DNA of 64,000 nucleotides from Ostreococcus lucimarinus (GCA_000092065.1 CP000587.1); one strand, 5' to 3'; counted from the stretch's first letter, positions 2,025 through 46,560 are shown. Notes: a model not told the origin generated them from the sequence alone. Translations and numbers: made by a program.

Positions 2025-3278
2025 ATGTCGAAGCGCTCGCGCGCGCGCGGAACGCGCACGCGAGATAAAACCGTTCAGGACCGCGCATGGGAGGCGCGAG
2101 ATGACGCGATGCGGTTGGTCCGCGAACGGTCGTTCGGGACGACCGTGCCTCTCGCGCGGTTCGCCGCACACGATGGCGCCGCGAACGTCGATATCGACGA
2201 GATGAACGACGACGAACCGCGAAACGCCTTCGAGCGCGCAGCGCGCTCACTCGAGTGTCCTTGGTACGTGGCGATGATGCGCGACGCAGAAACTACGCTC
2301 GACGACCTCGCGAAAAGTGTCGAGAACGACGAGAACGAGGACGACGCTTTCAGAACGAAAGCAATTTCTGCGCTCTCCGACATCGGCGTGGAGACGAAAG
2401 ACACGATGGCAATCGTGGATCACGTGCTTTCATCGCGCGCGCGCGCGCGTGCGCCCGCGATGGCGGTGACGCACGGCGACGCTCGAGACGTCATAAAGCG
2501 CACGCGCGGAGGCATTTATGACGAATCTTTTCTCAGCGCGATCGAGCCGCTGTATGATTTACACATGGGCGCGGAAAATATGGGACCTTTGTTGTACGCA
2601 ATCGCTCGGTTTTGTAAGCCCGCGCACGTGTTGGAAGTTGGCGCAGGGTACACGAGCATCTTTTTGCTCCAAGCGATGCGAGACAACGCCGATGAAATTG
2701 CGACGTATCGAGCGATGATTCAGCGTCAGGAGGCGCGCATCGGCGACGTTCCTTGGACAGCACCTGATTATGACTATGAAAAGCTCGACGCGTCAACTCT
2801 TCACATCGTCGACAACTGCGCGCACGAGCATACTACGGCGCATCGAGTGAAAGAGGTTGCTCAGGCGCTGGGGTGCGAATCGTTTTTGCGCGTCCACGTC
2901 TGCGATGCGTTCGACAGCGAGCTACCAAGCACGTTGGCCGTTCCAGATGTCAAGTACTTCGACCTGTTGTGGATCGACTTAGGCGCCGCAAACCGCATCG
3001 AAGGCTTCTTCGACGCCTGGTGGAGTCGAGTGAATCCATGCGGTGGTTTCGTCGTCGTGCACTCGACGCTGACAAATACGCTGTCGCGTAAATGGCTGGA
3101 AAAGATGCGAAAGCTCGCCCGAGACGGGGGTCGCGACGCCGAGACTGGAGCATCGCCTTACGGGGAGTTCGTCACTGTGAGTTTCCTGGAACCGCATAAG
3201 ATGTTCCAAAACTCGTGCTCGTTTTTCCAACGACGCCAAAGCTCGTGGACCGAACGCACCTTGACGAAGTATCCATAG
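2025..3278 (+). CDS. Class I SAM-dependent methyltransferase (O-methyltransferase-like Rossmann fold)
   Basis: Motif I VLEVGAGYTS; acidic post-I residue; LLWIDLG; VVVHSTL. The 5' end is uncertain because the ORF start overlaps the divergent kelch ORF extension. Confidence 0.55.
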   Translation: MSKRSRARGTRTRDKTVQDRAWEARDDAMRLVRERSFGTTVPLARFAAHDGAANVDIDEMNDDEPRNAFERAARSLECPWYVAMMRDAETTLDDLAKSVENDENEDDAFRTKAISALSDIGVETKDTMAIVDHVLSSRARARAPAMAVTHGDARDVIKRTRGGIYDESFLSAIEPLYDLHMGAENMGPLLYAIARFCKPAHVLEVGAGYTSIFLLQAMRDNADEIATYRAMIQRQEARIGDVPWTAPDYDYEKLDASTLHIVDNCAHEHTTAHRVKEVAQALGCESFLRVHVCDAFDSELPSTLAVPDVKYFDLLWIDLGAANRIEGFFDAWWSRVNPCGGFVVVHSTLTNTLSRKWLEKMRKLARDGGRDAETGASPYGEFVTVSFLEPHKMFQNSCSFFQRRQSSWTERTLTKYP

Positions 3279-3351: not shown

Positions 3352-6300
3352 CTACATTTTGCTCTCGTCGCTATATTTGCACCCTTCTTTCGCGAGGTAA
3401 GTGTTCCAAACGCCGCCGTCCGCGCATTCCCACAGGCTATTGTCCTCCACAATCGGCATGCTCACCGAAGGAACTTTACGCCAGACGCTACACTTGTGGC
3501 ACTGTTTCCAGTTCACCTCTTCGTCCTCTTGCATGCCCGCGTCGCCGCCGACGATTTTGCTTACGTCAATGTCAACGTTGCCGAGGCTGAGAATGTTCAC
3601 CGCGGCGGCGTTGCCAGTGACGACTGCACCGTGCACACATTGCGGTCCAGTAATTGAACACGCCTCTCCGGCGAAGTAAAGCCGTCCATCGTGCTCTGGA
3701 GCGGCCAAAGCCTCGACGTCGAGAACAGTCGTGCCGGTGCGCGCATACGAATACGCGCCAAAAGAGTGCTCGTCGTTTCCCCAGTTCGTGACGATGTAGT
3801 CATCTGGCACAGGAAGTGACTTCAACCGAAACATCTTCTGCAACACTCGACAAACGCCGCGAACAATTTCAAGTTCATCTTTACCGTCGAAGTCGTGCGC
3901 GTACGGCGGGGCGACATGCGCTAACAGGGTGTGTTTTTTGCCGTACGCGTCTAAATTCAGAAAGCGATAACGTGGATCGGTGACTTGGAAGAATTTCGAC
4001 TTCGGCCAAAACATTTCTTTGAAGCGCATGTAAACCTTATTTTCGGTACCCATTCCTATGCGTTGAATCGCGCGCAACTTTTGATCGCTCAACGGCGGCG
4101 TGAACTCGATGCGATTCTTTTTTAGGACACCCAGTGGCACGGTGACAACGACGTAATCGCACGGATGCTGCGTCCCGTTTGTGCACGTAACACAGTATGA
4201 CTTCTGCTTTGCCTTGATCTGTTGTCCAAACTCGTTCATGAAAGATGTCTCGTCGACTTTCACACGATTGACGACGTGCTCATACTTGATATCGAGCGCG
4301 CCATCTTTCTCCCCAATTAATCGATCTATGAGCAGGTCTTTGTATCCATTCACGACCATGCCGTCAGAAAAATCTAACTGTTTGTTTTCCACCTTGCCCG
4401 GCGGCCGTTTTACGGCGGAGTCCACTGTGGACGCGTCACTTTCGCTTTCGACATATGATGTTTCATTTGCGTTGACTGGCCCATCAGGGGCGAGAATGTC
4501 TCTGATTTCGTCTTGCACATTTCGCTCGAAGACGAAGGACAACTCTCGCATAGGCGCAACGAACGCCCAAGTGATTACTGGTATCGAATCATACACTGGT
4601 TTCACCTTTTCAAAACGTTTCTTCCCGTTAAGTAAAGAGTTCACGATTTGGTTCGTCGCGTAGTTGAAGGCGTCTTCCAAGGAGCAATCAGAATTTTCCT
4701 CGATTTCATCGTAACCTCTCGCCGACGGCGACGCGATAAAATGCTGCGCCTGTAACTGTTCGTTTTGTGTGCTTTTTATCGGCACGCACAGCGACCGCTC
4801 AATGTCCTCGGCATTTTTAATAAACATTATTTCAGTCGCCTTGCGCGAGATTTGAAACGCCTGCGCAACGTCTTGTTCTTTCACGCGTCCGCCCTCGGCG
4901 TTATACCACGACGACTTTTCTCCCCATCCAGCGCTGTAACCGCCACCTGCCGTGTTGAGCGCGACTTTATGCTTCTTGGCAATCGCATACACAGGATTGT
5001 AATCGTGGCAACCATGAATGAACGATGCACCGAGATCAACCTGCACGCTCGGTAAGCCCGCGCTCGCCATCTCCCGCATTTCAACGGTGTTGCAGCGCCC
5101 ACCTGGTCGGCTGCGCGACTCTAAAACAACTACGGATGCACCATGATTTTTCAAACTTCTCGCCGCAGCCAGTCCAGCCGGACCGGCACCGACGACGACG
5201 ATAACTGGTGACGGGTTTCCGCCCCACGGCACGTTGACCGGTTTCGCTGGCTTTTCCTCGATTCGTTTCTTCGGTACAGGCTTTTTGACCGCGTCGTTGA
5301 CGTCGCACTTCTTCTTGGTTGCCTTTGTTTCCAAGTCATCAGCAGAAAGCTTACGTTTGGGTGTCACCGGTTTCGATTTGATGACCTTCATCGTCGTCGA
5401 CGCCAACGCATCTTTCGGAACACCATTTTCGACCACCACCGCTGACACCGTCGTCGTCAACTCCGGAAGAGTTGAAGGGACATCCAGCCGCTGACCTCCC
5501 TCGTCATATACTCGCTTCCACCTTTTTCGCAAATCTTTTGCGTAGACGCGAGCTCGGTCGAGGTATCTTCTTATGGATTCGTTAGAGCGTAAACGATTCA
5601 TGTGTGTGCCTATCTCGACTTCACCAGTCGCCGAGCAGTTCGTAAACTTGAGTTTCTCTCCGGTGGTGCGATCGATTCTGATGAACGCTTTATCAATGTT
5701 CTGTGGATTATCCTTGCGCGCTTGCGCGAAAACGTACACGTCGCCATCCCACCACGTAATTCTATTGAGCGGTGCGTCAAATTCCTCGTTCGTCTCGAGC
5801 ACGTCGTGCAGCGGTTTCGGCGGTAGCGCTGGCGCCAAGACTCTGAAGTACTGCCTCTTCTTCATCAACTCGGTCGATGTCTTACCGGCGTTCTTCACCA
5901 ACACCATGCGATCGCACGTCTCTCGTAAGGTCTTCGCGTCAGTGTGAATCGCGTAGCGCGCGCAGTTCGAGGGTGGAAGCAACAAAACTCGATTGGAATT
6001 GAGCAATCGAACGGCGCGTAGTTTCGCGTCTGACACCTTCTTGACGTACTCCTTCGCATCCAAAAGCACTCCCGGTATCAACTCGCCGTCAAATTCGTCT
6101 GCTATACTCACCGCGCACCACTTGGCGCTCGCTACTTTCGCTGTCTTCGTCTTCGCTACTTTCGCTGTCTTCGTCTTCGCCGCGTTCGCTGTCTTCGTCT
6201 TCGCCGCGTTCGCTGTCTTCGTCTTCGCCGCGTTCGCTTGGCTCGGGCGCATCTCGCAATCACTGAATTTCACGTCATGTCGCTTCCTCGCGGGCGGTAA

Positions 6301-6399
6301 AGGCGCGATGACGTCTTCTTCGTTGTCGTCGTCGTCGTCAACCGCCGGCATGTGAGACTCCCGTGAGATTCCTCGAGCGCTTGCCGCGTGGTTCGACAA
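3352..6399 (-). CDS. LSD1/KDM1-like flavin amine oxidase with a C-terminal CW-type zinc finger and an N-terminal Lys/Thr-rich repeat (putative histone demethylase)
   Basis: FAD-binding fingerprint VVVGAGPAGLAAARSLKNHGASVVVLESRSRPGGR. C-terminal amine-oxidase block (YSYARTG...RLYFAGEA). Terminal W-x-QC-x2-C-x-W...WEC CW finger (NWKQCHKCSVWRKVP...WECADGGVWNTY). N-terminal ANAAKTKT x5 repeat. Confidence 0.75.
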   Translation of the reverse strand: MSNHAASARGISRESHMPAVDDDDDNEEDVIAPLPPARKRHDVKFSDCEMRPSQANAAKTKTANAAKTKTANAAKTKTAKVAKTKTAKVASAKWCAVSIADEFDGELIPGVLLDAKEYVKKVSDAKLRAVRLLNSNRVLLLPPSNCARYAIHTDAKTLRETCDRMVLVKNAGKTSTELMKKRQYFRVLAPALPPKPLHDVLETNEEFDAPLNRITWWDGDVYVFAQARKDNPQNIDKAFIRIDRTTGEKLKFTNCSATGEVEIGTHMNRLRSNESIRRYLDRARVYAKDLRKRWKRVYDEGGQRLDVPSTLPELTTTVSAVVVENGVPKDALASTTMKVIKSKPVTPKRKLSADDLETKATKKKCDVNDAVKKPVPKKRIEEKPAKPVNVPWGGNPSPVIVVVGAGPAGLAAARSLKNHGASVVVLESRSRPGGRCNTVEMREMASAGLPSVQVDLGASFIHGCHDYNPVYAIAKKHKVALNTAGGGYSAGWGEKSSWYNAEGGRVKEQDVAQAFQISRKATEIMFIKNAEDIERSLCVPIKSTQNEQLQAQHFIASPSARGYDEIEENSDCSLEDAFNYATNQIVNSLLNGKKRFEKVKPVYDSIPVITWAFVAPMRELSFVFERNVQDEIRDILAPDGPVNANETSYVESESDASTVDSAVKRPPGKVENKQLDFSDGMVVNGYKDLLIDRLIGEKDGALDIKYEHVVNRVKVDETSFMNEFGQQIKAKQKSYCVTCTNGTQHPCDYVVVTVPLGVLKKNRIEFTPPLSDQKLRAIQRIGMGTENKVYMRFKEMFWPKSKFFQVTDPRYRFLNLDAYGKKHTLLAHVAPPYAHDFDGKDELEIVRGVCRVLQKMFRLKSLPVPDDYIVTNWGNDEHSFGAYSYARTGTTVLDVEALAAPEHDGRLYFAGEACSITGPQCVHGAVVTGNAAAVNILSLGNVDIDVSKIVGGDAGMQEDEEVNWKQCHKCSVWRKVPSVSMPIVEDNSLWECADGGVWNTYLAKEGCKYSDESKM
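6131..6240. repeat. 24-bp tandem repeat, ~4.5 copies (gc[tc]ac/gcgttcgctgtcttcgtcttc), inside the LSD1-like CDS. It encodes the (A)NAAKTKT repeat.
   Basis: Direct reading of 6121-6240. The peptide repeat is visible in ORF 3352..6399(-) and mirrored in ORF 5993..6355(+) (FAVFVFA x5). Confidence 0.8.
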
Positions 6400-8457: not shown

Positions 8458-11400
8458 ATGGGCGTCGATCGCGCTCGCGCTCGTAGGTTGACCGAGAGCG
8501 AGAACGATGACGACGACGACCGAAGTCTCGACGCGCGCGAGGAGGTTGGAGATGGTGACGACGAGAGTGACGAAGAAGATGTGGACGGGGATAGTGTTGT
8601 ACGCGCGTCTCTGGAACGCGCAAGCGAGCGAGATGCGGAGATTGCGGATGAGAGGGATACGCGAGTGCGAATACTTCTCATTCGCGAACGGGACGCCGAG
8701 TTCGCGCGAGATCCAAAATTTAAATCGCGATCAATCGCCGAGTTGAACAACGAAGCCGTGCGATATTTGAAAGCCGGAGACGATGTCAAGTGTGTGGTGG
8801 CTTACGCCAAGGTGTTTCGAAAGGTTTCTGAAAACAACGTCACGCACCCGACGCTATACGTGTGCCACTCAAATCGCGCATTCGCGTACTTGAACTTGGG
8901 TCTATTTCAAGAAGCTCTGTGGGATGGCCATCGCGCGCAGACATTGGCGAATGAGCGTTTCACGCAGTTACAAGATGACGACGGGAGTGTCAAGGTTTTC
9001 GTGAAGGGTTACGCGAGGAAGGGTTTCGCGCTCATGGGTTTGCGGGAACCGAAACTCGCAAAGCTCGAGTTTGAGCGCGGATTAACCATGAGCCCGACCG
9101 ATGAGGAATTGAAGCGCGGTTTGGAAGAGGCAACGCAAGCAGTCATTCGTGATTTATACATCGGACGCGGAAAAGAGAAACAATATGCCCTGCCGAGCTC
9201 CGGGAAAACGAGTGAGAGAATTTCGTCGCTGCCGTACTCGGCGCCGCTTCACCGTGTGCATCCTCGCGATATGCTGCCCAACACGCTATTGACCCCATTC
9301 CAAGCCGAAAATGATTATCATCTGAAGGACACGTACAATTATATGACGATTCAAGCCGATATTCGCGTCCCGAAGAGACATTTCAAGGTTTTACAAGACG
9401 ACGTTCGGCGCGCCAAGTTCTCTACGGCGATTAAATGCGCAATCGACAAGATGCACGACGACGCCAAAGATGCACGAGTTTTGAATATCGGTTGCGGTGC
9501 GGGATTAAATACAATGTTGGCGTTGAAACACGGTGCGCATCACGTGACGGCTACCGAGCGCTGGCTGTACCTCGCCATGGCTACGAAGGAGAATTTGTTG
9601 AACAACGGATACAGTGATGACCAAGTCAAAGTCGTGTACAAGCGTCCGACTGATCTCGCGTTGCTTCGCGATGTCCCAATATCGTGCAACGTGTGCGTGT
9701 GCGATGTATTTGACGACGGTTTGCTGAGTTCGGGGATCATTCCCGCCGTTAGGCATGCCTTGGACAAGCTATTGTTGCCAGACGCAGTCGTCATTCCGTC
9801 GAGCGCGACGCTGTACGCCCAAGCCGTCGATATGCGCACGCCCGCCTTTGACGGAATCAATCTCAGCGCGATAGACGGTTACAGATGGCACCCAACGTAC
9901 ATTGCAGGCATTGATTTATTCGAGAACGCGTACATCACTCTGAGCGATCCTGTGCAAGTGTTCCAATTTGACTTCCTCATGCCGCCAGACTGTAGCGAGA
10001 AGAAGACGATTGATTTAACGTTTACGAAGCGCGGCAAGTTCAACGCCGTGGTGTTTTGGTACGAGATGACTTTGATTGATGATGTGAAAATTTCAACAAA
10101 ACCTGGTGGTGAAGATTGTCCTTCTTCGATGCGCGCCGCTGTCCAGTTCATGCCCGGGAAAATATCAATAGAAGAAGGCAGCGTGTTGCCACTCACGTGC
10201 GCGCACAACACAGTCGGTATACAGTTTAGTGTCGAAGATGCAGAGTACGATCAAGTGACGAAAAAAGATGCCAGTTTTCCAAAATATCACTTTCACATGC
10301 TTCGCGATGAGGGGCGTCTGCACGCGTATTCGGACGCCCTCGGGCGTCAAGTTGCGCGAATCAAGGCTCGCGGAGACACGTGCAGGGCGCTCGACATCGG
10401 CACGGGAAGCGGTATACTCGCCATGCTCGCCGCGCGAGCGGGTGCGGATTCCGTCGTCGCTTGCGACACGCATCCATCGCTCGTGAGCGTCGCTAGACGA
10501 AATGTTGCCGCGAATGGTTACGGATCTCAGGTGAGCGTCCTGAAGCGCGACGCGACGCAACTCGAACGCGGCAAGCATGCGCCATACGACGGCGTTAATC
10601 TTATCGTTCTGGACGTCTTCGACGCCGGACTCACCGGAGATGACGTGTTGGACATGATAGAAGCAGCCCGTAAGCAATTGAGCGCATCTACGTGCGCAGT
10701 CGTTCCCGCGGCGGCGACGATTTATTGCGCAGGCATCGAAGCGTACACAAGCGAAGTCGACGGTTTCAACATGAGCGCCTTCAACAAGTATAGATGGGAC
10801 AGCACGTACGAGGCGACGTACATGCGAGACCAGCCTTACCGAGTGTTGACAAAACCCAAAAAAGTATTCGAATTCTTCTTTGATGACTCCCAGAAGAGCA
10901 AGGGCAGGGAAACCGTGCTAAAGATGGAGACAATCGCGCACGGCTACATGAATGCGGTGTGTTTTTGGTTTGATTTGCACATGGACGAAGAAGAGACGAT
11001 TACGACGGCACCGCTAGGGATTGGAAAGGGTGGTACAATTGAAAATCAACGCATTCTCGGCGACTTTGACGGTGCGCATGCGAAAAAGGTCATGTGCGAA
11101 TCTCTTCGCAGAGTTCGAGCGAACATGGCGTCGAATCCACGAAGCGAAGACTTTGAAAGCGACTCTGCGCGCGAGGGATCAAGCGACAGGACCGTTTTTG
11201 TCTCCGATGCCACGTCCTTAGGAGATGATGAATTCGACGACGACGATCGCGAGGAGCACTATTGGGGGCAGGCGCTGCAATACCTCGAACGCGGCGTCCA
11301 GGTGCGCGCGGGAAAGAAAATCGCGCTCTTGGCCAAGCGACAAAACGGCGGCGTGCACTTTAGTTTAAAAGAGGGCGTCGGAAATTGGGTAGGAAAACCA

Positions 11401-11700
11401 CCGTGGAAGATTGAATGGGGCGGCGGCGCGTCCGTGGAGAGCCCACATTTCCAGCGCGTGCACTATTGCCAATTGCTCGTCAACGATTTTCTGATGCGTC
11501 TACGATGCAAACGGTTCGCGCCGATCGAAAAAGACATGAAGATGATTCTCGCGCATTGCGGTGCGCTGTTTCTCGAGCCTCATAGCTTGACTGACATATA
11601 CCATCACTTAGTCATGCTAGAAGTGTACTTTGATTGGGAAGACTTCTCCCCGGGAACGAAGGTTGAATCGATGACGAAGCCGTGTTTGCGCCTGTGCTAA
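8458..11700 (+). CDS. PRMT9-like protein arginine methyltransferase: N-terminal TPR repeats followed by two tandem PRMT modules
   Basis: TPR-like segment (AYAKVFRK...HSNRAFAYLNLGLFQEAL...KGYARKGFALMGL). Module 1 has VLNIGCGAGLNTM...CVCDVFDDGLL. Module 2 has ALDIGTGSGILAM...LIVLDVFDAGLTGDD and a THW-like loop EHYWGQ. The [DE]xFDxxL loop is of the PRMT7/9 type. Confidence 0.75.
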   Translation: MGVDRARARRLTESENDDDDDRSLDAREEVGDGDDESDEEDVDGDSVVRASLERASERDAEIADERDTRVRILLIRERDAEFARDPKFKSRSIAELNNEAVRYLKAGDDVKCVVAYAKVFRKVSENNVTHPTLYVCHSNRAFAYLNLGLFQEALWDGHRAQTLANERFTQLQDDDGSVKVFVKGYARKGFALMGLREPKLAKLEFERGLTMSPTDEELKRGLEEATQAVIRDLYIGRGKEKQYALPSSGKTSERISSLPYSAPLHRVHPRDMLPNTLLTPFQAENDYHLKDTYNYMTIQADIRVPKRHFKVLQDDVRRAKFSTAIKCAIDKMHDDAKDARVLNIGCGAGLNTMLALKHGAHHVTATERWLYLAMATKENLLNNGYSDDQVKVVYKRPTDLALLRDVPISCNVCVCDVFDDGLLSSGIIPAVRHALDKLLLPDAVVIPSSATLYAQAVDMRTPAFDGINLSAIDGYRWHPTYIAGIDLFENAYITLSDPVQVFQFDFLMPPDCSEKKTIDLTFTKRGKFNAVVFWYEMTLIDDVKISTKPGGEDCPSSMRAAVQFMPGKISIEEGSVLPLTCAHNTVGIQFSVEDAEYDQVTKKDASFPKYHFHMLRDEGRLHAYSDALGRQVARIKARGDTCRALDIGTGSGILAMLAARAGADSVVACDTHPSLVSVARRNVAANGYGSQVSVLKRDATQLERGKHAPYDGVNLIVLDVFDAGLTGDDVLDMIEAARKQLSASTCAVVPAAATIYCAGIEAYTSEVDGFNMSAFNKYRWDSTYEATYMRDQPYRVLTKPKKVFEFFFDDSQKSKGRETVLKMETIAHGYMNAVCFWFDLHMDEEETITTAPLGIGKGGTIENQRILGDFDGAHAKKVMCESLRRVRANMASNPRSEDFESDSAREGSSDRTVFVSDATSLGDDEFDDDDREEHYWGQALQYLERGVQVRAGKKIALLAKRQNGGVHFSLKEGVGNWVGKPPWKIEWGGGASVESPHFQRVHYCQLLVNDFLMRLRCKRFAPIEKDMKMILAHCGALFLEPHSLTDIYHHLVMLEVYFDWEDFSPGTKVESMTKPCLRLC

Positions 11701-16936: not shown

Positions 16937-19732
16937 GTGACGTGGACAACGAAGTCGTTTCGATCGCGCGACATGTCCTCGCGCGCTCCCACGGACGAAC
17001 TCGCGGCGTTCTTGGACTACTTGCCGTCGCATCCACACGTCGGCGCGGGGGCTGCGTTGGACGATGGCTTAGAGGCGGACATATGGGATTCGATCGAGCT
17101 CGAACTCACGCGTGAAGTCGACGCGAGGACGGCGAACGATAATGGCGATCACAACGCGTTAGACGTCCGCGAAGGACGATCAACTCGAGGACGGGACGCG
17201 TCGACAAAGGACACGGCGAGAGGGACGAGAGGGCGTCGGCGAGCTTCGACGACTTCGAGGTCAAGGTCGCGCTCGTTGACCAAGCACACTCAGAAGGATG
17301 CGTTCGGACTCGTGAGAGGGGCTTATGAAACGGTGGAATCGAACGCGAGCGATGCCTCGGTGAACACCATGATGAAGCAACTCAACGATGCGCTGAACGC
17401 CGTCTCCGCCGGCTTGGGCGACGGTTGCCTCGCACAGATTTGGTTTGTTGAACGCGAAAATGACGACGTACTATTGCACACGGTGACTGAGTACGTGCGA
17501 GTGTGCAGTGAACATCGCTCGGATGCCCTTTGGGCGTTTCACCGCGGATGTACGTCGTTCATGTTGAACGTCGCGATCGCGGGCTCGGATGGTTTCACGC
17601 CTGGCTCGGGGGCGCCGGGACGCGTATTCGCGACGAATAGACCGGAGTGGACGCCATCGGTGCAGTGTTATCATCCATCGGAGTTTCCAAGAAATTCACT
17701 GGCGATCGAATGCGGGTGTTACAGTCAGTTGATCGTACCCGTGAACGCGAAACCGCAATCCACGACGCCGTTTGCGTTGCTTGAAATCACATTCCTGCAT
17801 GTGTTGGACAACATGGGTTCGGTTTACTCGCACGTCGTTCGCGAAATGACCAACGCGGGATTACACACTCCAATATCCGAAACGTTAGCGCCGCCGCCGG
17901 TGCTGATGGATAAAATTGCCGGAGAAGTTGCACGGTTGAAGGTAGCGGAGACGCAAAAGGGCTTGCAGATGATATGCTCCCGTCTTGAAATTCCGTTTGC
18001 GCAAATTTGGATCCCTCACGACGTGGATGGCACTCTAATTTGCGTGGGGACACCTTATTATCAGAAGTCGAATCATTTTCTTCACTATAGGAACGCATCT
18101 ATGAATCTCGCAATATCTCAGCACACCGGCTCCTTGTCCAAGGTTTGGAAAAACGGTTCCATGGTGTGGATGCATGATCTGAGCACGCTATCTCATCGCG
18201 ACTTTCTTTTGAAGCATTCATGTGATTTACTCAAGTTGCAAGCGATGTGTATTTCGAAGATTGCGTTGAAAGGTGTGACATCAGGTCAACCACTTCAGGT
18301 GCTGGTAGAGATCTTCCTCGATCCCAGCCTCAAGTCTCCGCGCGATCAGGCAAAGACAGTGCAGTCGTTTTGGTCCTCGGTTGAGGCGGATTTGAACGCT
18401 AGTGTGGTGACGGATACCGACAAAACATGGCTCGAAGAGATGAAAAAGAACCAGACAGCTTCTTCAAGCGGGGCAAATCCGGATGCCGCCGGAACAGCAT
18501 TGTGGGGTATCACCCTTGAGGTTTTGCAGCAAAACTTTCACAAGCATTTGAAACAAGCGGCGAGCGACCTCGGCGTCGGGAGCACAACGCTGAAACGAAT
18601 ATGCCGACAATACGGTATCCGTCGTTGGCCGCGAAGAAGTCTTAATAGCAAAAATGGTCATATGTCTGATATATTGGCAAAGAGTATCGCCACTGGCGCG
18701 ACTATGAGCGACGACGGCGCTGGGGAGTCTGTCCACGGAGGCGCTAGTTGCGTGTCGCACACTTCAGAAATCGGCGCATCAGGTACACTACCCTCACAAA
18801 GCATAAAGTCTCACTCACTCAGAGATATCGCCACGTTTTCGCCGACAACATCGGAGAAAAATAAGAGAGCTCTCGAGCAACGCGTTCACCGAGGTGGCAA
18901 TCTCGGCGCTTTTTGGCAAGGCGAAGGGGTGTCAAAAATGCAGCGCGGCATGAGCTGGCATGGGAACAATCAGGCGAGAGATGCGCTTGATTTTGACTTC
19001 CCAAATCGCTACGAGCAAAGCGTTCATGGTGTGTATAACTTTAATATGCCGCCACCACCGATGGACCAAAGTGTTCGAGGGGCGAGCACGTACAACGCCC
19101 TCTCCCTGGACGCGTCCGAAGAAATGGCGAGTTTTATCGATAAATTGGTTAAAGAACCTGAGAAAGAACCGGTGGTTGTTAAGGTACAAGTGCGTGATGT
19201 GCTCATACGAGTTCGATTGGTGACAAATGAGAGATATGTTGAACTCGTCGATGCGCTGACTGATTTGCTCGATCTACAAATGTCTTCGTGCAAGCTCAAA
19301 TATCAAGACGACGAGCAAGACTGGTGCTTGTTGCGTAATCAAGAAGATTTCGATGAGTGCTGGGCTTTCTGTACGCGACGTGGTTCGTCGTGCACGATGC
19401 GTGTAAAATTGACGATCGAAGAAGGAGTTGAGACAAAATCTCTATTCAAGCCGCAGCGCGCGCGAGCTGAAGTGCCGGACGCACAGGCGAAACCAATATC
19501 CGTAAAAGCAAGTGTTGGCGAAGACGTGCTACGATTCAAGTTAACGACAGAGATGTCGTGCGATGACATCGTAGCCAAGCTCAATCTCGCAGAAAATTCC
19601 TCTCAAAGTGTCACTTTGTGCTATCAAGACGAGGACGAGGACTGGATTCGACTCGGCGGTGACTATGACTTAGCTGAGCTTCGGCACGTCGGCAGCGCCA
19701 CGGGAGCGCTTAAACTGCAAGCAAACTATTAG
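16937..19732 (+). CDS. NIN-like (NLP) transcription factor: N-terminal GAF-like region, RWP-RK domain and two C-terminal PB1 domains
   Basis: RWP-RK core is [34 protein letters not shown]1 #1 is [15 protein letters not shown]...[16 protein letters not shown]1 #2 is [18 protein letters not shown]...[22 protein letters not shown]. Confidence 0.8.
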
Positions 19733-41399: not shown

Positions 41400-44300
41400 T
41401 CAGCCGTCGTCCGTTTCGTATTCGCTCTCTTCGTCGTCGCCGTCGTCTGTCTCATATTCGTCGTCGTCGTCTGTCTCATATTCGTCTTCGTCGTCGTCGT
41501 CGTCGTACCGCGTAACCGCGGGTCTACGACCGTGTAGAGCGCGGCGGAGTAGTGCTCGGCCGAAATGAAGATCATCTTCCGCGTCGTCACTGTCGCTATC
41601 GATGAAGTCAGAGTCGTATTCGCTGGAATCGTCGTCTCCCGAGTGCACGCCTTCGCCGTCGTCGTCGTAACGCACCCAATCGACCTCAGCCTCGCGCACC
41701 ATCTCGCGTAGACTGTTAATTTGATGCCGAATGCGCGCTTCGTTGATGTTTACCCGACCGTCTGCATCCTCAATGCGTTCTTCCGAGTCTTCGTCCGAAT
41801 AATCTTCTTCCCATCCATCGTGGTCCATGTTCAAAACCATGGGCTCGATCTCTTCGTGCTCGTCTTCGACGTCTGATTCGTCATCGGCTGGTCGTAGTCT
41901 CCCAACTTCGTGCAGACGCACGGTTGACTCGTGTGTGTTCAAGATATCATACTCCACCGTAGCGCAAAGAGTGTCGGAATTCACATCCCACGCGGCGTCA
42001 ATCATGCCCGAAGGAACGTCGACAGTGCAAATATCTGAATAATCGAGCATGTCGATGGTACAAAAAGAATGCTTGTACGGATGATGACACTTGCGCAAGG
42101 ATGAAAGCGGTGGCTCGTTTCTAGGGTGTAAAATGTGCGCCATACCCACGGTGCCGGTGAGGTTGAACTTTAGCGCTGCACGGTCGAGTGAAGGCACCAC
42201 GCGGAGCAAGCGTGATGACCGAATGTCCCACACTTCCCGCCCGATAATGATTTCGTTTCCTCCCGGATGGAAACACGCGCCCGCAGCCTCTGAATAACGG
42301 TCGAATCGTCGAATTGGCTTATCATTCGCCAATCGTACATCCCAGAGTACTTCATCCCACAAAATCAAGTCGTCGCTTGGAGAAAATGAAACTTCGTCGT
42401 TGTTTTTCGTCAATAACGGAGGGCCGCCAGTGTTCGAGGTGAGCCTGCGTGTAACGCGATGTGTTTCCATGTCCGCGAGCTCGACGACTGATTCGAGGCT
42501 ACCGCTGACAAATTGAGAGCCCGTGGAGTTTATGGCGCACCCAGAGTGACCAGAGCACCAAAGCATGTAGGGCGCATCGTCTGGATTCGGGAGGCTCCAA
42601 ATTGAGCAGCTTTCCACCGACGTAACGGCGAATAACGGTGTCGGGCACAGCGGACCAGCCGCCGCAATCTTGCGAATGGCGCCACTGACCCTCCCTGGCG
42701 TGGCGGCTATTTCCAAGAGCTCTCCAGATATGTGGTCGTACAGATGAAGCTCGCCGTCATTGTCACCGATGATGATTTGTTCCGGCACGCCATACAAGAA
42801 AGACGCGGCGGTGAATAAGCAATCATTGCCCCGAATCGCGCGCAGCGGTCTGAATCTGCTGTACACAAAGTGTCGATCAGCTCGACGCATGCCGGCATCC
42901 CAGCCAGTCACGTTAGCCCACTCACGCTGGCGAAGACGAGCCGTCAAGTTTCGCGGTGCTTCAAGAATACGTTTTGGCTGAGGACACTGATGCGGCGCAA
43001 GCAAAGAGAAGGGAGCGCACGCCGTAATCGGCGCGGCGCACTGCCGATGCTGAGCTCGGAGGTATTGCGTCAGAATAGAATCTAATCGCGAACGCACGCC
43101 ACAACCCGTTTCACCGCGTGGTGCATCGGAGACCAACACACCGGGTGTAGGAAACTCTTTGTGAACGCGCTCCTTCACGCTTGGCGATGGTGTTTGGTGT
43201 TCATTCGCACAGCAGGCGCGTTCTGTTGCACCAACTGCAATGGGTGGTGTGATAAGAGATTTCCGTATTTCTTCTCCGTTAGTTTTTCGCTTTTTGCCTC
43301 GTCGTGTGCTGCAAGGAGTAACAACAATACCATTTGCTCCTGGTTTGCTCGTTTTGACCGAATTGACCGAAGTTGTGACCACTGCGGGTGAAAGTTTGCT
43401 GGCTCGACTTGATTCTCCACGCCGTGGCCCTTTGCGCGGCGGCGCTTGAGTGGAGCCTTGCTCGAGCCCAAGAGTGAACGGTTCGCCCGCAATCCCGAGC
43501 ATACCGCGTGCCGCACCAGTCATTCTCGATCGTGGTGCACGCCGATACATCTTTGTGCGAGCTGTCTTGCTCTTGAAATTTAGCTTGAGGCGCGGCGCAG
43601 GCGAAGGACACAAACGACCTACACTCGCGCTGCGACCCGGGCGCTCCATCCCCGCCTCGTCCACGAGCGAAGCCGCGGTACTCGTCAAGCCAGCCGCGAC
43701 GAGATGCTCATGCATTATTTGTAAAAGCTCGTTGTGCGGATATCGAACTTTAGTTGCAGCTGCAATCAAGTGTCGTTCGAGTTTCGCCAGAGGCGGCGCC
43801 GCAGCGTCGGACGCCACCGCGGGCGTCGTCGCTTTGACGTTTGCAAACCCTGCGGTTGCCGCGATGAGCTCCACGGCGCATCGATGAAACTCTGTGGCGG
43901 CAGCCTGAACCGTAGCAGCTGTACCGTTTTCGCGCTTCGAGTCCACGATCGCTAGTTCGTCAAACGCGGAGTGTTGCGTCGTCCCCGTCTCGCGCAAAAG
44001 CTCTGAAAGATGCCGCGCTATTTGCAGCGTCTGTAGAGTGTTTGCGATTGACGCATCGCGAGATAACCCGAGCAAGGCACGACAACAAAGTGCTCTAGAT
44101 ATGTTCATAGACGGCTGAGGTAACGTCTTCGACGTTTTAAACAGCAGGTTGAGCAAAGACTTAACGCCAAAAGCCTCTCGGATATGTTTCCGCCCCGCCT
44201 CAAACGTTTCCTCCATTCGCGCGTAGTCAAAAACTGAGAACGACTTGCCATCGATGCTGTGAGAGCGCTGTAACTTCCCACTCTGTGATTTAGCATCGGT

Positions 44301-46367
44301 ACTATGCAAGGCGTAAGGGGGAGAAACGAGATTGCAAACGACTTTCAAAGCCTCGACCACGGCTTCAGTGTCGACCGCCTCTGCCGCATTCTCGACGACA
44401 TCTATGAGAACGTACCCAGAAGAGTAATATTCATCAAATTGCGCCTTTGCCGTGTGCACTCTTCCAGTGGGATGTGACGTCACAATCTTTAAAACGCTTA
44501 AAGATCCCAAAACGCACTCGCGAAGAGTTTTTTCACCCGGAGCCAAAGTGAGCAAGTCGAGCATCACCTTCGGCCCTTTTTGCGCCACGAAGGCTTCTAT
44601 GACGAGCCACGACTTGGTTTGCATGACGGCGGCGATGCGCTTTTGGCGACTCACTAAGCTAAATAGTCGCTCCGTCGCATCGTATCCGATATCCATCGCT
44701 TGTAGCATCGCACGATTATTGGTGCTCGTACTCTTCTTCGATTTGCCCATCACCTTTTCTTCGATCGCTTTGACGTGTTGCGCAAAATGCGCGCGCATGT
44801 ACTGTCTAAGCAACAAGCTCACGTGATCTCCAGTCTCTTTCGCCTGCGAAATCTCGTTCGGAGACATCGATGGGCGCACCTTATCTACGTCTACAACCAT
44901 CACTGCCAACGTCCGAAGGACGTCAAGGACGAGCTTGAGGCCAGCCTCCGCGTCAAACGCCACGACGACGACGGGGATTTGCATGGCAAACGTCAGGAAC
45001 AATGCGGCTTGACGACGCGCGTACTCGTTGCTGCAATCCAAAAGCTCGAGCGATACTTTCACATATCGTCGTGCCAAGTCCACCTGCGGCGACACGAGAC
45101 GTTCGAGCGCCGTGGTGATGCTCGCGATACCGAATAGGCAGCGCGTCAAATTGTAGTACGTCATAGGCCCTCTGGGAATGTTTAGCAACAACTTTGCGCC
45201 ACCGGCGTCAATGAAAGAAATCGCAAACTTCCGATGCGCCAGAAACGCACTGACGATAGAGAGCGCTTCGGATAGTTGAGGATCTCCAGGCCAAGCCGAA
45301 GTTTCTCCGTGGTGCCGCTTGAAGCCGTACTTCTCAAGCCACCCGTTTTCGCGGGGTCCCGCGACGAGACGCAGAGAGAGTTCGAGGACACCGTGCTTGA
45401 GTGCCTCTGCAAAACACTCAACATAATCGCCTATTGCTCCCACACACGTCAAGCGCGCTTGCATTAACGAGCGATGAAGATCGTCGTGATCGCCCGCATC
45501 GAGTCCGCTCGAGCAACCTTCGCCGGCGTCCTCGGCTAAACGCAACGTGTCCTCGCAAGAAATTTCCCACGCGGGCATGTCTTCGCCACCGCGACAGATC
45601 AACCGCACGAGCGGTATCAACAAACTCTCCATCACCCCGTTTCGTATGTTATCGCTCGCCGCGGTATCCGTGACGAGTAACGAGCAAAGCGCGCCCATCG
45701 CGTACGTCTTCAGCCGCCGCATGTCCAATTCCGCCGTCGGCCCGAGCAAGTGTTCGTTATCTCGCCTCGCCTCCATCGCTTGCACGTACGACCGACCCTC
45801 AAACGCGATCTCGCTCAGCACGTTGCAATACAAATCTTTCGTCGCATCATCGAACGGAAGGATTGAACATTTTTGCGCGTTTCGCATTCGGCACCCCAAC
45901 CCGCACGCGCGCATCACCCGCATCGCTCCCGCTTGCTCGCACAGTGCGCTGACGTACATCTGCTCCCCCACGGCGATGTCAACGATCGACCGCCGCCACT
46001 CAGGCTTGAACGGCATGTCATCGATCGCCTTCAGCCCGGCGTACTCGCGTCGGAGCGCGCTCGAGCACGACCCGCTGAAATCCTCAAAGCCTCGTTCCTC
46101 GCGTTCGATCGCGCGCGCCAGCGCGTGATACGACCGCGTCGCATCGTCAATAGCGCCTCGCGTGCGCGCCGCGACGACGCTTTTCCACGCCTCCTCCATC
46201 TCGCGCGCGTTTCGTTTCGATTCCGCCGCGAACGTCGACGCCGCCAACTTCTCCACGCTCGGCGGCACCGCGTGCTCGCGCGTTCGACGCCCCCGCGCGC
46301 GAGGCGTCGCCTCGCCGCCCGCGCCGCCGCTCGTCGTCGCGCGCGGCATCGCGTCGCCGCGCGGCAT
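41400..46367 (-). CDS. DCAF1: DCAF1/VprBP-like CRL4 substrate receptor: armadillo-like N-terminal region, LisH motif, WD40 domain, acidic C-terminal tail
   Basis: LisH is ELLQIMHEHLVAAGLTSTAASLVDEAG. The WD40 region runs ...LFAVTSVESCSIWSL...ILWDEVLWDVR...REVWDIRSSRLL. The tail is DDEDEYETDDDDEYETDDGDDEESEYETDDG. The ORF extends to 46844 through Arg-rich read-through; the likely start is ~46367. Confidence 0.75.
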   Translation of the reverse strand: MPRGDAMPRATTSGGAGGEATPRARGRRTREHAVPPSVEKLAASTFAAESKRNAREMEEAWKSVVAARTRGAIDDATRSYHALARAIEREERGFEDFSGSCSSALRREYAGLKAIDDMPFKPEWRRSIVDIAVGEQMYVSALCEQAGAMRVMRACGLGCRMRNAQKCSILPFDDATKDLYCNVLSEIAFEGRSYVQAMEARRDNEHLLGPTAELDMRRLKTYAMGALCSLLVTDTAASDNIRNGVMESLLIPLVRLICRGGEDMPAWEISCEDTLRLAEDAGEGCSSGLDAGDHDDLHRSLMQARLTCVGAIGDYVECFAEALKHGVLELSLRLVAGPRENGWLEKYGFKRHHGETSAWPGDPQLSEALSIVSAFLAHRKFAISFIDAGGAKLLLNIPRGPMTYYNLTRCLFGIASITTALERLVSPQVDLARRYVKVSLELLDCSNEYARRQAALFLTFAMQIPVVVVAFDAEAGLKLVLDVLRTLAVMVVDVDKVRPSMSPNEISQAKETGDHVSLLLRQYMRAHFAQHVKAIEEKVMGKSKKSTSTNNRAMLQAMDIGYDATERLFSLVSRQKRIAAVMQTKSWLVIEAFVAQKGPKVMLDLLTLAPGEKTLRECVLGSLSVLKIVTSHPTGRVHTAKAQFDEYYSSGYVLIDVVENAAEAVDTEAVVEALKVVCNLVSPPYALHSTDAKSQSGKLQRSHSIDGKSFSVFDYARMEETFEAGRKHIREAFGVKSLLNLLFKTSKTLPQPSMNISRALCCRALLGLSRDASIANTLQTLQIARHLSELLRETGTTQHSAFDELAIVDSKRENGTAATVQAAATEFHRCAVELIAATAGFANVKATTPAVASDAAAPPLAKLERHLIAAATKVRYPHNELLQIMHEHLVAAGLTSTAASLVDEAGMERPGRSASVGRLCPSPAPRLKLNFKSKTARTKMYRRAPRSRMTGAARGMLGIAGEPFTLGLEQGSTQAPPRKGPRRGESSRASKLSPAVVTTSVNSVKTSKPGANGIVVTPCSTRRGKKRKTNGEEIRKSLITPPIAVGATERACCANEHQTPSPSVKERVHKEFPTPGVLVSDAPRGETGCGVRSRLDSILTQYLRAQHRQCAAPITACAPFSLLAPHQCPQPKRILEAPRNLTARLRQREWANVTGWDAGMRRADRHFVYSRFRPLRAIRGNDCLFTAASFLYGVPEQIIIGDNDGELHLYDHISGELLEIAATPGRVSGAIRKIAAAGPLCPTPLFAVTSVESCSIWSLPNPDDAPYMLWCSGHSGCAINSTGSQFVSGSLESVVELADMETHRVTRRLTSNTGGPPLLTKNNDEVSFSPSDDLILWDEVLWDVRLANDKPIRRFDRYSEAAGACFHPGGNEIIIGREVWDIRSSRLLRVVPSLDRAALKFNLTGTVGMAHILHPRNEPPLSSLRKCHHPYKHSFCTIDMLDYSDICTVDVPSGMIDAAWDVNSDTLCATVEYDILNTHESTVRLHEVGRLRPADDESDVEDEHEEIEPMVLNMDHDGWEEDYSDEDSEERIEDADGRVNINEARIRHQINSLREMVREAEVDWVRYDDDGEGVHSGDDDSSEYDSDFIDSDSDDAEDDLHFGRALLRRALHGRRPAVTRYDDDDDEDEYETDDDDEYETDDGDDEESEYETDDG

Positions 46368-46560
46368 CGCGCGCGCGCCGCTCTGCCGAGCCGCCGGCGC
46401 GTCGCCGGCATTCGTCGACGCGTTCGAGTCGGCACAGACGCGCTCGCGAACGCATCGCGCGCCGAACGAGCGCGACGACTCGGCGTCGCTCGGTCGCGCG
46501 CGTCGTCGGACCTCGCGCCGCGCCCGTCGTCCGCGTCGCTCGCGCGCGCGCGTTCGGACG

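What the first reader, a model, noticed from the sequence alone, without database searches (positions are those of the whole stretch)
3352..6399. LSD1-family amine oxidase fused to a C-terminal CW zinc finger and an N-terminal Lys/Thr-rich repeat encoded by a 24-bp DNA tandem repeat
The 1015-aa protein has a clear FAD/amine-oxidase core (VVVGAGPAGLAAARSL...RLYFAGEA). It ends in a W-x-QC-x2-C...W-E-C CW finger, and CW fingers read methylated histone H3 tails. The architecture differs from animal KDM1B (CW at the N-terminus plus SWIRM) and from plant LDL proteins (SWIRM, no CW). I could not recognise a SWIRM domain. The N-terminus carries five ANAAKTKT units encoded by a precise 24-bp tandem repeat at 6131-6240, whose copy number may vary, plus a ~250-aa region of unknown fold (RITWWDGDVYVFAQA...). 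This is a candidate histone demethylase with an unusual reader arrangement.
Basis: partly seen in the sequence, partly recalled or inferred. Interest (0 to 1): 0.65.

Follow-up and report, generated by a model that had tools for sequence, protein, structure and literature searches.

The report
Reader-flanked amine oxidase, not LSD1-type
A marine green picoalga encodes a flavin amine oxidase flanked by probable chromatin-binding domains (a PWWP-like barrel, an undescribed ~90-residue module and a CW zinc finger), but its catalytic core is not demonstrably LSD1-type, so it may be an independently evolved chromatin amine oxidase.

Summary
The ORF is real, on the minus strand at 3352-6351. It is 999 aa from the first ATG; the 1015-aa TTG start comes from using the bacterial codon table.

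- **Oxidase core:** intact FAD amine oxidase (Pfam 7.7e-64).
- **CW finger:** the window sequence alone scores below Pfam's cutoff (19.3 vs 27.5 bits). A profile of the family's C-termini hits only CW fingers in the PDB, and the four Cys are invariant in 13 relatives.
- **SWIRM:** not detected.
- **24-bp repeat:** real, 4.6 copies (3 exact, 1 variant, 1 partial). Environmental alleles carry 1-4 full units.

"LSD1-family" is not supported. The oxidase, together with a few oxidase-only relatives, forms its own clade (100% bootstrap). Its position relative to SWIRM-LSDs, KDM1B, plant PAO2/3 and bacterial oxidases is unresolved. Flavin-site motifs are PAO/bacterial-type, and the motifs conserved across the SWIRM-LSD sequences are missing.

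Best reading: a chromatin-tethered amine oxidase of Mamiellales algae, possibly a convergent histone demethylase. The substrate is unproven.

The parts
3352..6351 (-). Complete single-exon coding sequence: 999 aa plus stop, from the first ATG
   Evidence: ORF; ATG at 6351; translation checked. Full-length homologues at 41-99% identity start at the same Met. An MMETSP transcript marked 'complete' exists in the cluster of the 41%-identical homologue P0010.
6241..6351 (-). Acidic N-terminus (poly-Asp/Glu encoded by a GAC-type 3-bp microsatellite at 6312-6339) followed by a basic PARKRH patch; predicted disordered
   Evidence: TRF period-3 row; sequence; pLDDT below 30. Alleles differ in the D/E run.
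6129..6238 (-). 24-bp in-frame tandem repeat encoding ANAAKTKT x3, AKVAKTKT x1 and a partial AKVASA; a copy-number-variable minisatellite
   Evidence: TRF: 4.6 copies, 96% matches. Pattern search: 4 matches vs 0 expected. Alleles carry 1, 2 or 3 full units. Clean 24-bp indel. Absent from the 41-46% homologues.
5857..6123 (-). PWWP-like (Royal-family) beta-barrel plus two helices, residues 77-165; no PWWP motif and no obvious aromatic cage
5497..5772 (-). Undescribed ~90-aa module, residues 194-285: five strands plus a long helix. Consensus: GDVY..R...F.R.D..G...F.NC..TG...G...LRS..A...LER
   Evidence: pLDDT 88-97 in the model. No Pfam or PDB sequence hit. Only 21 hits among 1.84 billion representatives. 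It recurs 4x in P0196, 2x in P0199 (with oxidase + CW), and inside the oxidase domain of P0207.
5218..5484 (-). Poorly conserved, Lys-rich, predicted-disordered linker with NLS-like patches (KPVTPKRKL, KKPVPKKRIEEK)
   Evidence: Composition: 18 K+R in 89 residues. pLDDT below 40. Not alignable among homologues.
3589..5202 (-). FAD amine-oxidase domain, residues 384-921. Contains GAGPAGL, LESRSRPGGR, ASFIHG (H446), GTENK (K772) and FAGEA, plus a family-specific middle region with an acidic disordered insert
   Evidence: Pfam Amino_oxidase 7.7e-64 in two stretches. PDB hits. Motif blocks. Own clade in the tree.
3514..3588 (-). Conserved oxidase-to-CW linker (GNVDID..KIVGG.AG[LM]Q), residues 922-946
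   Evidence: N925, V926, D927, V934, G935 and G939 are invariant or nearly invariant in the 11-sequence alignment. That the finger is held in a fixed position relative to the oxidase is inference.
3373..3513 (-). CW-type zinc finger, residues 947-993: W948-x2-C951-x2-C954-x2-W957...W974-x-C976...C991
   Evidence: Pfam zf-CW 19.3 bits, below cutoff. 9 of 11 relatives hit. P0199 scores 35.7 bits. The family profile hits only CW fingers in the PDB. The four Cys are invariant in 13 relatives.

Best explanation
This is a nuclear, chromatin-tethered flavin amine oxidase of a marine green picoalga (Mamiellales; most likely Ostreococcus, by inference).

Shown:
- The gene is one intact exon encoding an apparently competent FAD amine oxidase. 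The dinucleotide-binding motif, the GGR and FAGEA motifs and the flavin-N5 lysine K772 are all present.
- The oxidase belongs to a clade of its own.
- It is flanked N-terminally by a PWWP-like barrel and a previously undescribed ~90-residue beta/alpha module.
- It is flanked C-terminally by a CW zinc finger, joined through a conserved linker.
- A disordered acidic/Lys-Thr-rich N-terminal tail carries a copy-number-variable 24-bp repeat.

Inferred mechanism:
- Basic NLS-like patches send the protein to the nucleus.
- The CW finger has both Trp residues that align with the two Trp of the ASHH2 and MORC3 CW fingers; that these form the methyl-lysine cage is from recalled literature. The finger docks on the histone H3 N-terminal tail.
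- The PWWP-like barrel, the new module and the basic tail contribute DNA or nucleosome contacts.
- The oxidase then oxidises an amine held on chromatin. Most likely this is a mono- or di-methylated histone lysine, using LSD-type chemistry reached independently of LSD1/LSD2 and without a SWIRM domain. Hydrogen peroxide and formaldehyde would be released.

The repeat is a recent slippage-prone minisatellite in a disordered tail and has no conserved function.

I put chromatin association at about 0.75. The specific histone-demethylase substrate gets about 0.4-0.45, which is the confidence given for this explanation.
For: - Intact oxidase.
- CW identity, with both cage-position Trp present in this species (aligned to the two Trp of the ASHH2 and MORC3 fingers).
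- PWWP-like fold.
- The new module stays attached to this oxidase clade in three different arrangements (N-terminal single copy, N-terminal double copy in P0199, and internal insertion in P0207), which argues for functional coupling.
- The whole architecture is conserved across about 41-46% identity, with conserved gene neighbours.
- A transcript exists in a relative.
- Conserved oxidase-CW linker.
- The family CW profile hits ASHH2 and MORC3 but not the KDM1B finger, consistent with an independent fusion.
- From general knowledge: CW and PWWP domains are known almost only from chromatin proteins, and ZCWPW1 pairs the same two reader types.
Against: - No SWIRM domain. All known flavin histone demethylases have one (PMC6558185, PMC2579438).
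- The oxidase is not placed inside the KDM1 clade.
- Flavin-site motifs are PAO/bacterial-type, and the acidic helix and His motifs conserved in the SWIRM-LSD sequences are missing.
- The closest relatives outside the family are oxidase-only proteins, which probably act on small amines.
- The two CW cage Trp are both present only in the window clade and P0199. One or both are replaced in the other lineages, so methyl-lysine reading is not a conserved property of the family.
- The PWWP-like barrel has no sequence-level PWWP signal and no obvious aromatic cage (manual alignment).
- The full-length model was too poor (pLDDT 42) to inspect the substrate cleft.
- There are no experimental data.
Confidence: 0.45

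Rival explanations
1. It is a chromatin- or nucleus-targeted polyamine oxidase. The oxidase keeps the ancestral small-amine chemistry (spermine, spermidine or acetyl-polyamine back-conversion). The reader domains only place it on chromatin, where polyamines are concentrated.
For: - PAO/bacterial-type active-site motifs: His in ASF[IV]HG, GTENK, FWP.
- End-to-end alignment to plant PAO2 (132 bits).
- The best named non-family hits for the oxidase alone are plant PAO2/3-like proteins.
- The sister sequences are oxidase-only proteins.
- The motifs conserved across the SWIRM-LSD sequences are absent.
Against: - The family is not inside the plant PAO2/3 clade either, and scores lowest against the PAO profile.
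- The His that PAOs and LSDs share in the GGH[GC] motif is Asp here.
- To my knowledge, no known polyamine oxidase carries histone-reader domains.
- Persistent fusion with three chromatin-type modules is easier to explain if the substrate is a chromatin protein.
Confidence: 0.28
2. It is a genuine but highly diverged member of the LSD1/KDM1 family that lost its SWIRM domain and gained the CW finger secondarily.
For: - KDM1B is the top PDB sequence hit (2e-34).
- KDM1B is the nearest neighbour in the NJ tree, though with only 19% support.
- Five of 43 LSD-versus-PAO discriminating columns agree with LSD.
- The LSD profile outscores the plant PAO profile.
Against: - The KDM1B margin over SMOX and PAOX is small (122 vs 114 and 108 bits).
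- Six discriminating columns agree with PAO and 32 with neither.
- No SWIRM in any of 11 members.
- The LSD-clade motifs are absent.
- Ostreococcus already has two canonical SWIRM+AOD KDM1 genes and six other AOD genes (PMC2579438; LDL3-type homologues in PMC6558185).
- The CW profile does not hit the KDM1B finger.
Confidence: 0.08
3. It is not a chromatin enzyme. The CW finger and N-terminal modules are structural or protein-interaction appendages (as the KDM1B CW largely is), and the enzyme oxidises some other amine away from chromatin.
For: - The cage Trp are not conserved across the family.
- The PWWP-like barrel lacks a cage and any sequence signal.
- The second module has no known function.
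Against: - The four zinc ligands and the oxidase-CW linker are strictly conserved.
- NLS-like basic patches are present.
- The N-terminus is acidic and carries no evident targeting peptide.
- All PDB matches of the finger profile are chromatin readers.
Confidence: 0.1

Closest known systems
KDM1B / LSD2 (animal flavin histone demethylase with a CW finger)
   Same: It is also an FAD amine oxidase combined with a CW-type zinc finger in one polypeptide. It is the best PDB sequence match to the oxidase (2e-34). It has no Tower insertion.
   Different: In KDM1B the CW sits at the N-terminus, with a C4H2C2 finger and a SWIRM domain before the oxidase. Here the CW is C-terminal, no SWIRM is detected, and the N-terminus is a PWWP-like barrel plus a new module. 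The family CW profile does not retrieve the KDM1B finger. The oxidase is not reliably sister to KDM1B (19% bootstrap). The active-site His, ENK and FWP motifs differ.
Plant LDL/FLD and other SWIRM-containing LSD1 homologues (including the LDL3-type proteins of Ostreococcus)
   Same: FAD amine-oxidase fold; conserved flavin-N5 lysine; about 36% identity over the C-terminal 226 residues of the oxidase domain.
   Different: All carry a SWIRM domain (PMC6558185). They conserve DLGGSV.TG, WH.ANLE, GGDHC and G.LNK motifs that this family lacks. They form a separate clade.
Plant peroxisomal PAO2-4-type polyamine oxidases and bacterial flavin monoamine/polyamine oxidases
   Same: Shared GASx[IL]HG His, G.G.ENK and FWP motifs. 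End-to-end alignability at 28% identity. The highest profile score is to the bacterial group.
   Different: These are about 450-490-aa single-domain enzymes. The family is outside their clades. It has an extra, family-specific middle region and Asp instead of His in the GGH motif. It carries three additional domains.
ZCWPW1/ZCWPW2 (CW + PWWP dual histone readers)
   Same: The same pair of reader folds (CW finger and PWWP-type barrel) in one protein. Both Trp positions of the CW cage are present in the window protein.
   Different: ZCWPW proteins have no enzyme domain, and their PWWP is recognisable by sequence and has an aromatic cage. Here the barrel is PWWP-like only at the level of the predicted fold, and the two readers flank an oxidase. 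The ZCWPW comparison rests on general knowledge and was not tested here.

Membership tests
LSD1/KDM1 flavin histone demethylases | SWIRM domain N-terminal to the amine-oxidase domain | tested here: not met
   No PF04433 hit at E<=1 in the window protein or at E<=0.1 in any of 11 family members. The modelled N-terminus is two beta-rich modules plus helices, not a SWIRM helical bundle. The segment just before the oxidase is disordered and unconserved.
LSD1/KDM1 flavin histone demethylases | Oxidase domain nests within the KDM1 clade | tested here: inconclusive
   NJ tree with 46 sequences, 420 columns and 100 bootstraps. The family plus oxidase-only relatives form their own clade (100%). Deeper placement has at most 19% support. 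No maximum-likelihood tool was available.
LSD1/KDM1 flavin histone demethylases | LSD-type substrate-site motifs: Thr/Asn in DLG..V.TG, the D-x3-E-x3-N helix, WH.ANLE, and His in GGDHC. Mapping to human T335, D375/E379/N383 and H564 is from memory. | tested here: not met
   The alignment blocks show that the family has ASF[IV]HG, V..F.., IP.ITWA and SDG instead. 5 of 43 discriminating columns agree with LSD, 6 with PAO and 32 with neither.
LSD1/KDM1 flavin histone demethylases | Conserved flavin-N5 lysine and FAD-binding motifs | tested here: met
   K772 in GTENK, plus GAGPAGL, GGR and FAGEA. These are shared by all flavin amine oxidases, so they are not discriminating.
LSD1/KDM1 flavin histone demethylases | Demethylation of H3K4me1/2 (or other methyl-lysines) | not testable with these tools
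   Needs an enzyme assay.
zf-CW (PF07496) zinc finger | Score at or above Pfam's gathering threshold | tested here: inconclusive
   The window protein scores 19.3 bits against a cutoff of 27.5. 9 of 11 relatives hit, best E 4e-6. The distant relative P0199 scores 35.7 bits.
zf-CW (PF07496) zinc finger | Four zinc-ligand Cys with CW spacing and the conserved Trp residues | tested here: met
   C951, C954, C976 and C991 are invariant in 13 relatives. W948, W957 and W974 are present in the window protein. The family profile hits only CW fingers in the PDB (ASHH2 2e-4, MORC3 1e-3, MORC4).
zf-CW (PF07496) zinc finger | Binding of the H3 tail / H3K4 methyl state | not testable with these tools
   Both cage-position Trp are present here, but one or both are replaced in most other lineages.
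PWWP domain | Five-stranded barrel followed by a helical segment (fold) | tested here: met
PWWP domain | Sequence-profile match, P-W-W-P motif and aromatic cage | tested here: not met
   No Pfam hit. No PDB profile hit. hhalign against the LEDGF PWWP gives 1.4% probability. The motif position reads L-I-P-G, and the cage positions appear non-aromatic by manual alignment.
Polyamine oxidases (plant PAO2-4 / SMOX / PAOX type) | Active-site His in GASW.HG and the G.G.ENK / FWP motifs | tested here: met
   blocks; (H446 and E770 are PAO-type).
Polyamine oxidases (plant PAO2-4 / SMOX / PAOX type) | Oxidase domain nests within a PAO clade; single-domain architecture | tested here: not met
   The family lies outside the plant PAO2/3 clade and has its lowest profile score against it. 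The protein has three extra domains.

The most novel reading that the evidence does not exclude
This family is a third, independently evolved lineage of flavin-dependent histone demethylases. It was built from a PAO/bacterial-type oxidase without a SWIRM domain, and it is targeted by a CW finger, a PWWP-like barrel and a new, previously undescribed chromatin-binding domain. That domain also occurs on its own, in tandem arrays, and inserted into the oxidase in other algal proteins.
Probability: 0.3. Interest if true: 0.8.

Novelty: new variant of a known kind. Interest (0 to 1): 0.55.

Why it matters
All flavin-dependent histone demethylases known so far are SWIRM-oxidase proteins of one clade (LSD1, LSD2 and the plant and fungal homologues).

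A separate oxidase clade that has repeatedly kept company with chromatin-type modules would mean one of two things. Either amine-oxidase chemistry was recruited to chromatin more than once, or polyamine oxidation is deliberately placed on chromatin in picoalgae. Either outcome is testable in Ostreococcus tauri, which is reported (from my own knowledge, not checked here) to be genetically tractable.

The work also defines a rare domain of about 90 residues with a confident predicted fold and no Pfam or PDB counterpart. It further documents a natural in-frame copy-number polymorphism in ocean populations.

The practical caution is that 'amine oxidase + CW' should not be annotated as LSD1/KDM1 by architecture alone.

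Tried and rejected
1. **Full-length AF2 model.** With the 11-sequence alignment the mean pLDDT was 42 and the oxidase part was unusable, so the substrate cleft could not be inspected.
2. **Foldseek with the N-terminal model.** Nothing significant against the PDB or BFVD. The AFDB library was not available.
3. **MBD idea for the second module.** The module's 'LRS..AV.RYLER' resembles the MBD motif 'FRSKPQLARYL'. Pfam and PDB profile searches gave nothing. Rejected as unsupported.
4. **Tudor idea for the second module.** hhalign against the SMN Tudor domain gave nothing.
5. **Sequence-level PWWP test of the first module.** Negative. Only the fold-level match stands.
6. **Third homologue search, with the merged N-terminal alignment.** It returned only fragments.
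7. **Exact look-up of the 999-aa protein.** Not on record. A search for the NCBI assembly accessions in papers gave only irrelevant hits.
8. **Literature searches** for an oxidase with a C-terminal CW, or with a PWWP, in green algae found no description of this architecture in the held library.
9. **Neighbouring Methyltransf_24 protein.** No informative PDB relative.
10. **Rfam scan of the window.** No matches.
Full report
**1. The observation**

The minus strand carries an uninterrupted ORF at 3352..6399. The tool's 1015-aa product starts at a TTG allowed by the bacterial table. The first ATG is at 6351 and gives 999 aa beginning MPAVDDDDD, which is where the close homologues start. All residue numbers below use this 999-aa numbering.

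Pfam finds Amino_oxidase at 7.7e-64 and the NAD_binding_8 Rossmann motif at 1.5e-16. It finds zf-CW at only 19.3 bits (E 1.1e-3; gathering cutoff 27.5). No SWIRM, PWWP, BAH or Tudor hit appears at E<=1.

Tandem Repeats Finder reports a 24-bp repeat at 6129-6238 with 4.6 copies and 96% matches. The unit matches four times here and nowhere else in the window, against zero matches in 100 shuffles.

**2. Source organism and gene family**

The window is gene-dense and intron-poor at about 57% G+C. It encodes eukaryotic genes: GWT1, cullin, eIF2A and Snu114. It also encodes an NLP-type RWP-RK/PB1/GAF protein, an architecture I know as specific to the green lineage.

The protein has ten full-length homologues, all from marine metagenomes, Tara Oceans data or MMETSP. 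They fall at 99%, 89% and 41-46% identity. Further members came from later searches: P0079, P0080, P0195 and P0199.

Neighbouring genes are shared between the lineages. The Methyltransf_24 gene is adjacent in all four lineages examined, and GWT1, NLP or the ABC-G transporter appear nearby in some. I infer a Mamiellales picoalga, probably Ostreococcus. This was not shown directly.

**3. The repeat**

The encoded peptide is ANAAKTKT three times, AKVAKTKT once, then AKVASA. That is four full units and a partial one, not five identical units.

- Near-identical environmental alleles have three full units (991 aa), two units (983 aa) or one unit (fragment P0197).
- The DNA alignment with an NCBI metagenome contig shows a clean 24-bp indel with identical flanks.
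- The sister species keeps two degenerate units, and the 41-46% homologues have none.
- The region is predicted to be disordered.

It is a young, slippage-prone coding minisatellite. No conserved role is indicated.

**4. The CW finger**

- Nine of eleven family members hit zf-CW individually, best E 4e-6.
- The distant relative P0199 passes Pfam's threshold at 35.7 bits.
- A profile of nine C-termini searched against all PDB sequences returns eleven hits, every one a CW finger: ASHH2 at 2e-4, MORC3 at 1e-3, and MORC4.
- The KDM1B finger is not among those hits.
- The four Cys are invariant in all thirteen relatives examined.

The two Trp that align with the two Trp of ASHH2 and MORC3 are both present in the window protein, its sister species and P0199. 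I recall these as ASHH2 W865/W874 and MORC3 W410/W419, the methyl-lysine cage; both the numbering and the cage role are from memory. P0195 has W/F. The remaining lineages have W/S, L/W, S/W or T/T.

So the finger is a genuine CW. Methyl-lysine reading is plausible in this species, but it is not a conserved property of the family.

The 25 residues between the oxidase and the finger are themselves highly conserved. This suggests a fixed arrangement of the two domains, which is inference.

**5. The N-terminal 'unknown' region**

A profile of residues 70-300 finds nothing in the PDB by sequence. Among 1.84 billion representative proteins it finds only 21 hits. The complete two-part region occurs only in this family.

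Its second part is an ~80-90-residue module with the consensus GDVY..R...F.R.D..G...F.NC..TG...G...LRS..A...LER. This module also occurs in other contexts:

- four times in P0196, which has no other Pfam domain;
- twice in P0199, together with the same oxidase and a CW finger;
- inserted inside the oxidase domain of P0207;
- in several small proteins.

It has no Pfam or PDB sequence match.

The first module (residues 77-165) is therefore a PWWP-like Royal-family barrel with trailing helices, at fold level only.

- Sequence-level tests are negative.
- The PWWP motif position reads LIPG.
- The usual cage positions appear non-aromatic by manual alignment.

The second module (five strands plus a long helix) remains unassigned. 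Foldseek found nothing significant. A resemblance of its LRS-helix motif to the MBD motif was not statistically supported.

**6. Is the oxidase LSD1-type?**

*Similarity scores do not discriminate.*

| Comparison | Score |
|---|---|
| Whole protein vs KDM1B (PDB) | 122 bits |
| Whole protein vs spermine oxidase (PDB) | 114 bits |
| Whole protein vs PAOX (PDB) | 108 bits |
| Whole protein vs KDM1A (PDB) | 100 bits |
| Whole protein vs maize PAO (PDB) | 95 bits |
| Oxidase alone vs Linum PAO2 (BLASTP) | 132 bits, end to end |
| Oxidase alone vs LDL1 (BLASTP) | 125+35 bits, in two pieces |

With the oxidase alone as query, the best named non-family hits are plant PAO2/3-like proteins (1e-51 to 1e-38) and bacterial flavin monoamine oxidases. 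LDL-type LSD1 homologues follow at about 4e-38.

*Tree.* An NJ tree of 46 oxidase domains (420 columns, 100 bootstraps) puts the family in a clade of its own. That clade also contains two oxidase-only proteins of about 550 aa (P0086, P0087) and P0082, which lacks the CW finger, and it has 100% support. Its position relative to the SWIRM-LSD clade, KDM1B, the bacterial enzymes and plant PAO2/3 has at most 19% support.

*Profile cross-scoring.* The bacterial group scores 259-286 bits, the LSD group 220-255 and plant PAO2/3 161-185. The groups differ in size and diversity, so this ranking is weak evidence.

*Discriminating columns.* At 43 columns that separate LSDs from plant PAOs, the family agrees with LSD at 5, with PAO at 6 and with neither at 32.

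*Motifs.*

| Site | This family | Group it resembles | SWIRM-LSD proteins |
|---|---|---|---|
| Flavin-site loop | ASF[IV]HG | PAOs and bacterial enzymes (same His) | GSV.TG |
| Around the catalytic Lys | GTENK, then FWP | Plant PAOs | G.LNK, then FWG |
| GGH position | SDG | Bacterial enzymes (Asp) | His (as in PAOs) |
| D-x3-E-x3-N helix | absent | none | present |
| WH.ANLE | absent | none | present |

I map the D-x3-E-x3-N helix, from memory, to the H3-binding residues D375/E379/N383 of human LSD1.

*Literature.* Published surveys define KDM1 proteins by SWIRM plus oxidase. They count two such genes and six other oxidase genes in Ostreococcus (PMC2579438), and LDL3-type SWIRM-oxidase homologues are described in O. 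tauri and O. lucimarinus (PMC6558185).

The protein is therefore not a demonstrable LSD1-family member. It is also not a member of the plant PAO2/3 clade.

**7. Most likely function**

Shown:

- a catalytically intact flavin amine oxidase;
- persistent fusion, across about 41-46% sequence identity, with a CW finger, a PWWP-like barrel and the new module;
- the new module staying with this oxidase clade in three different arrangements.

Inferred:

- nuclear localisation through the basic patches;
- docking on nucleosomes through the finger and the N-terminal modules;
- oxidation of an amine on chromatin.

I favour a methylated histone lysine as substrate (about 0.4-0.45). Enzymes flanked by histone readers normally act on chromatin proteins. 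The main rival (about 0.28) is polyamine oxidation placed on chromatin. That rival is better supported by the active-site motifs and by the oxidase-only sister sequences. A diverged true LSD1 (about 0.08) and a non-chromatin enzyme with structural appendages (about 0.1) are less likely.

**8. Novelty**

The logic of an amine oxidase plus a CW finger is known from KDM1B. Here the fusion is independent:

- the finger is at the other end of the protein;
- the finger profile does not retrieve the KDM1B finger;
- there is no SWIRM domain;
- the oxidase clade is separate;
- one flanking domain has no described counterpart.

I found no description of this architecture in the searchable literature. 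I rate it a new variant of a known kind, of moderate interest. The interest would rise sharply if histone demethylase activity were shown.

Noticed in passing
window 2025-3278 (+): A 417-aa Methyltransf_24-domain gene lies 73 bp from the oxidase gene's stop codon, in convergent orientation. A Methyltransf_24 gene is adjacent to the oxidase gene in every lineage examined (41-99% identity), though in the 41-46% lineages it sits upstream on the same strand. This could be plain synteny or a functional methyltransferase/oxidase pairing.
   Followed up: partly
P0207 (residues about 519-669), P0196, P0199; found with the profile of window residues 70-300: The new ~90-aa module is inserted inside the oxidase domain of P0207, occurs four times in P0196 (no other Pfam domain) and twice in P0199 (oxidase + CW). 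Only 21 hits exist in 1.84 billion representative proteins.
   Followed up: partly
window 8458-11700 (+): A 1080-aa protein with PrmA/PRMT-type methyltransferase and PRMT_C domains (a protein arginine methyltransferase-like gene) lies three genes away. The same gene is near the oxidase gene in the sister species contig L001.
   Followed up: no
L001 1-19700 (contig_17449, 706-729 kb of 734 kb): In the sister-species contig, the oxidase gene is flanked on both sides by mirror-image copies of the same genes (PrmA-like, a 155-aa ORF, ribosomal S7, His_biosynth). This is either an inverted duplication near the contig end or an assembly artefact.
   Followed up: no
window 41400-46844 (-): An 1814-aa ORF has no Pfam family at E<=1e-5.
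   Followed up: no
window 6312-6339 (-): A 3-bp (GAC/GAA-type) microsatellite encodes the poly-Asp/Glu N-terminus. Alleles differ in the D/E/N pattern (DDDDDNEED, DDDDDDEED, DDDDDEEED, DDDDEDDED).
   Followed up: partly
window 16937-19732 (+): An NLP-type transcription factor gene (GAF_NLP + RWP-RK + PB1) marks the window as green-lineage. It is also next to the oxidase gene in the P0004 lineage (L010, L011).
   Followed up: partly
window residues 420, 448, 898 and 905 of the 999-aa protein (within 3589-5202): Four Cys close to flavin-binding motifs (GGRC, HGC, GEAC, QCVHG) are invariant in the family but absent from the LSDs and plant PAOs compared. Their significance is unknown.
   Followed up: no
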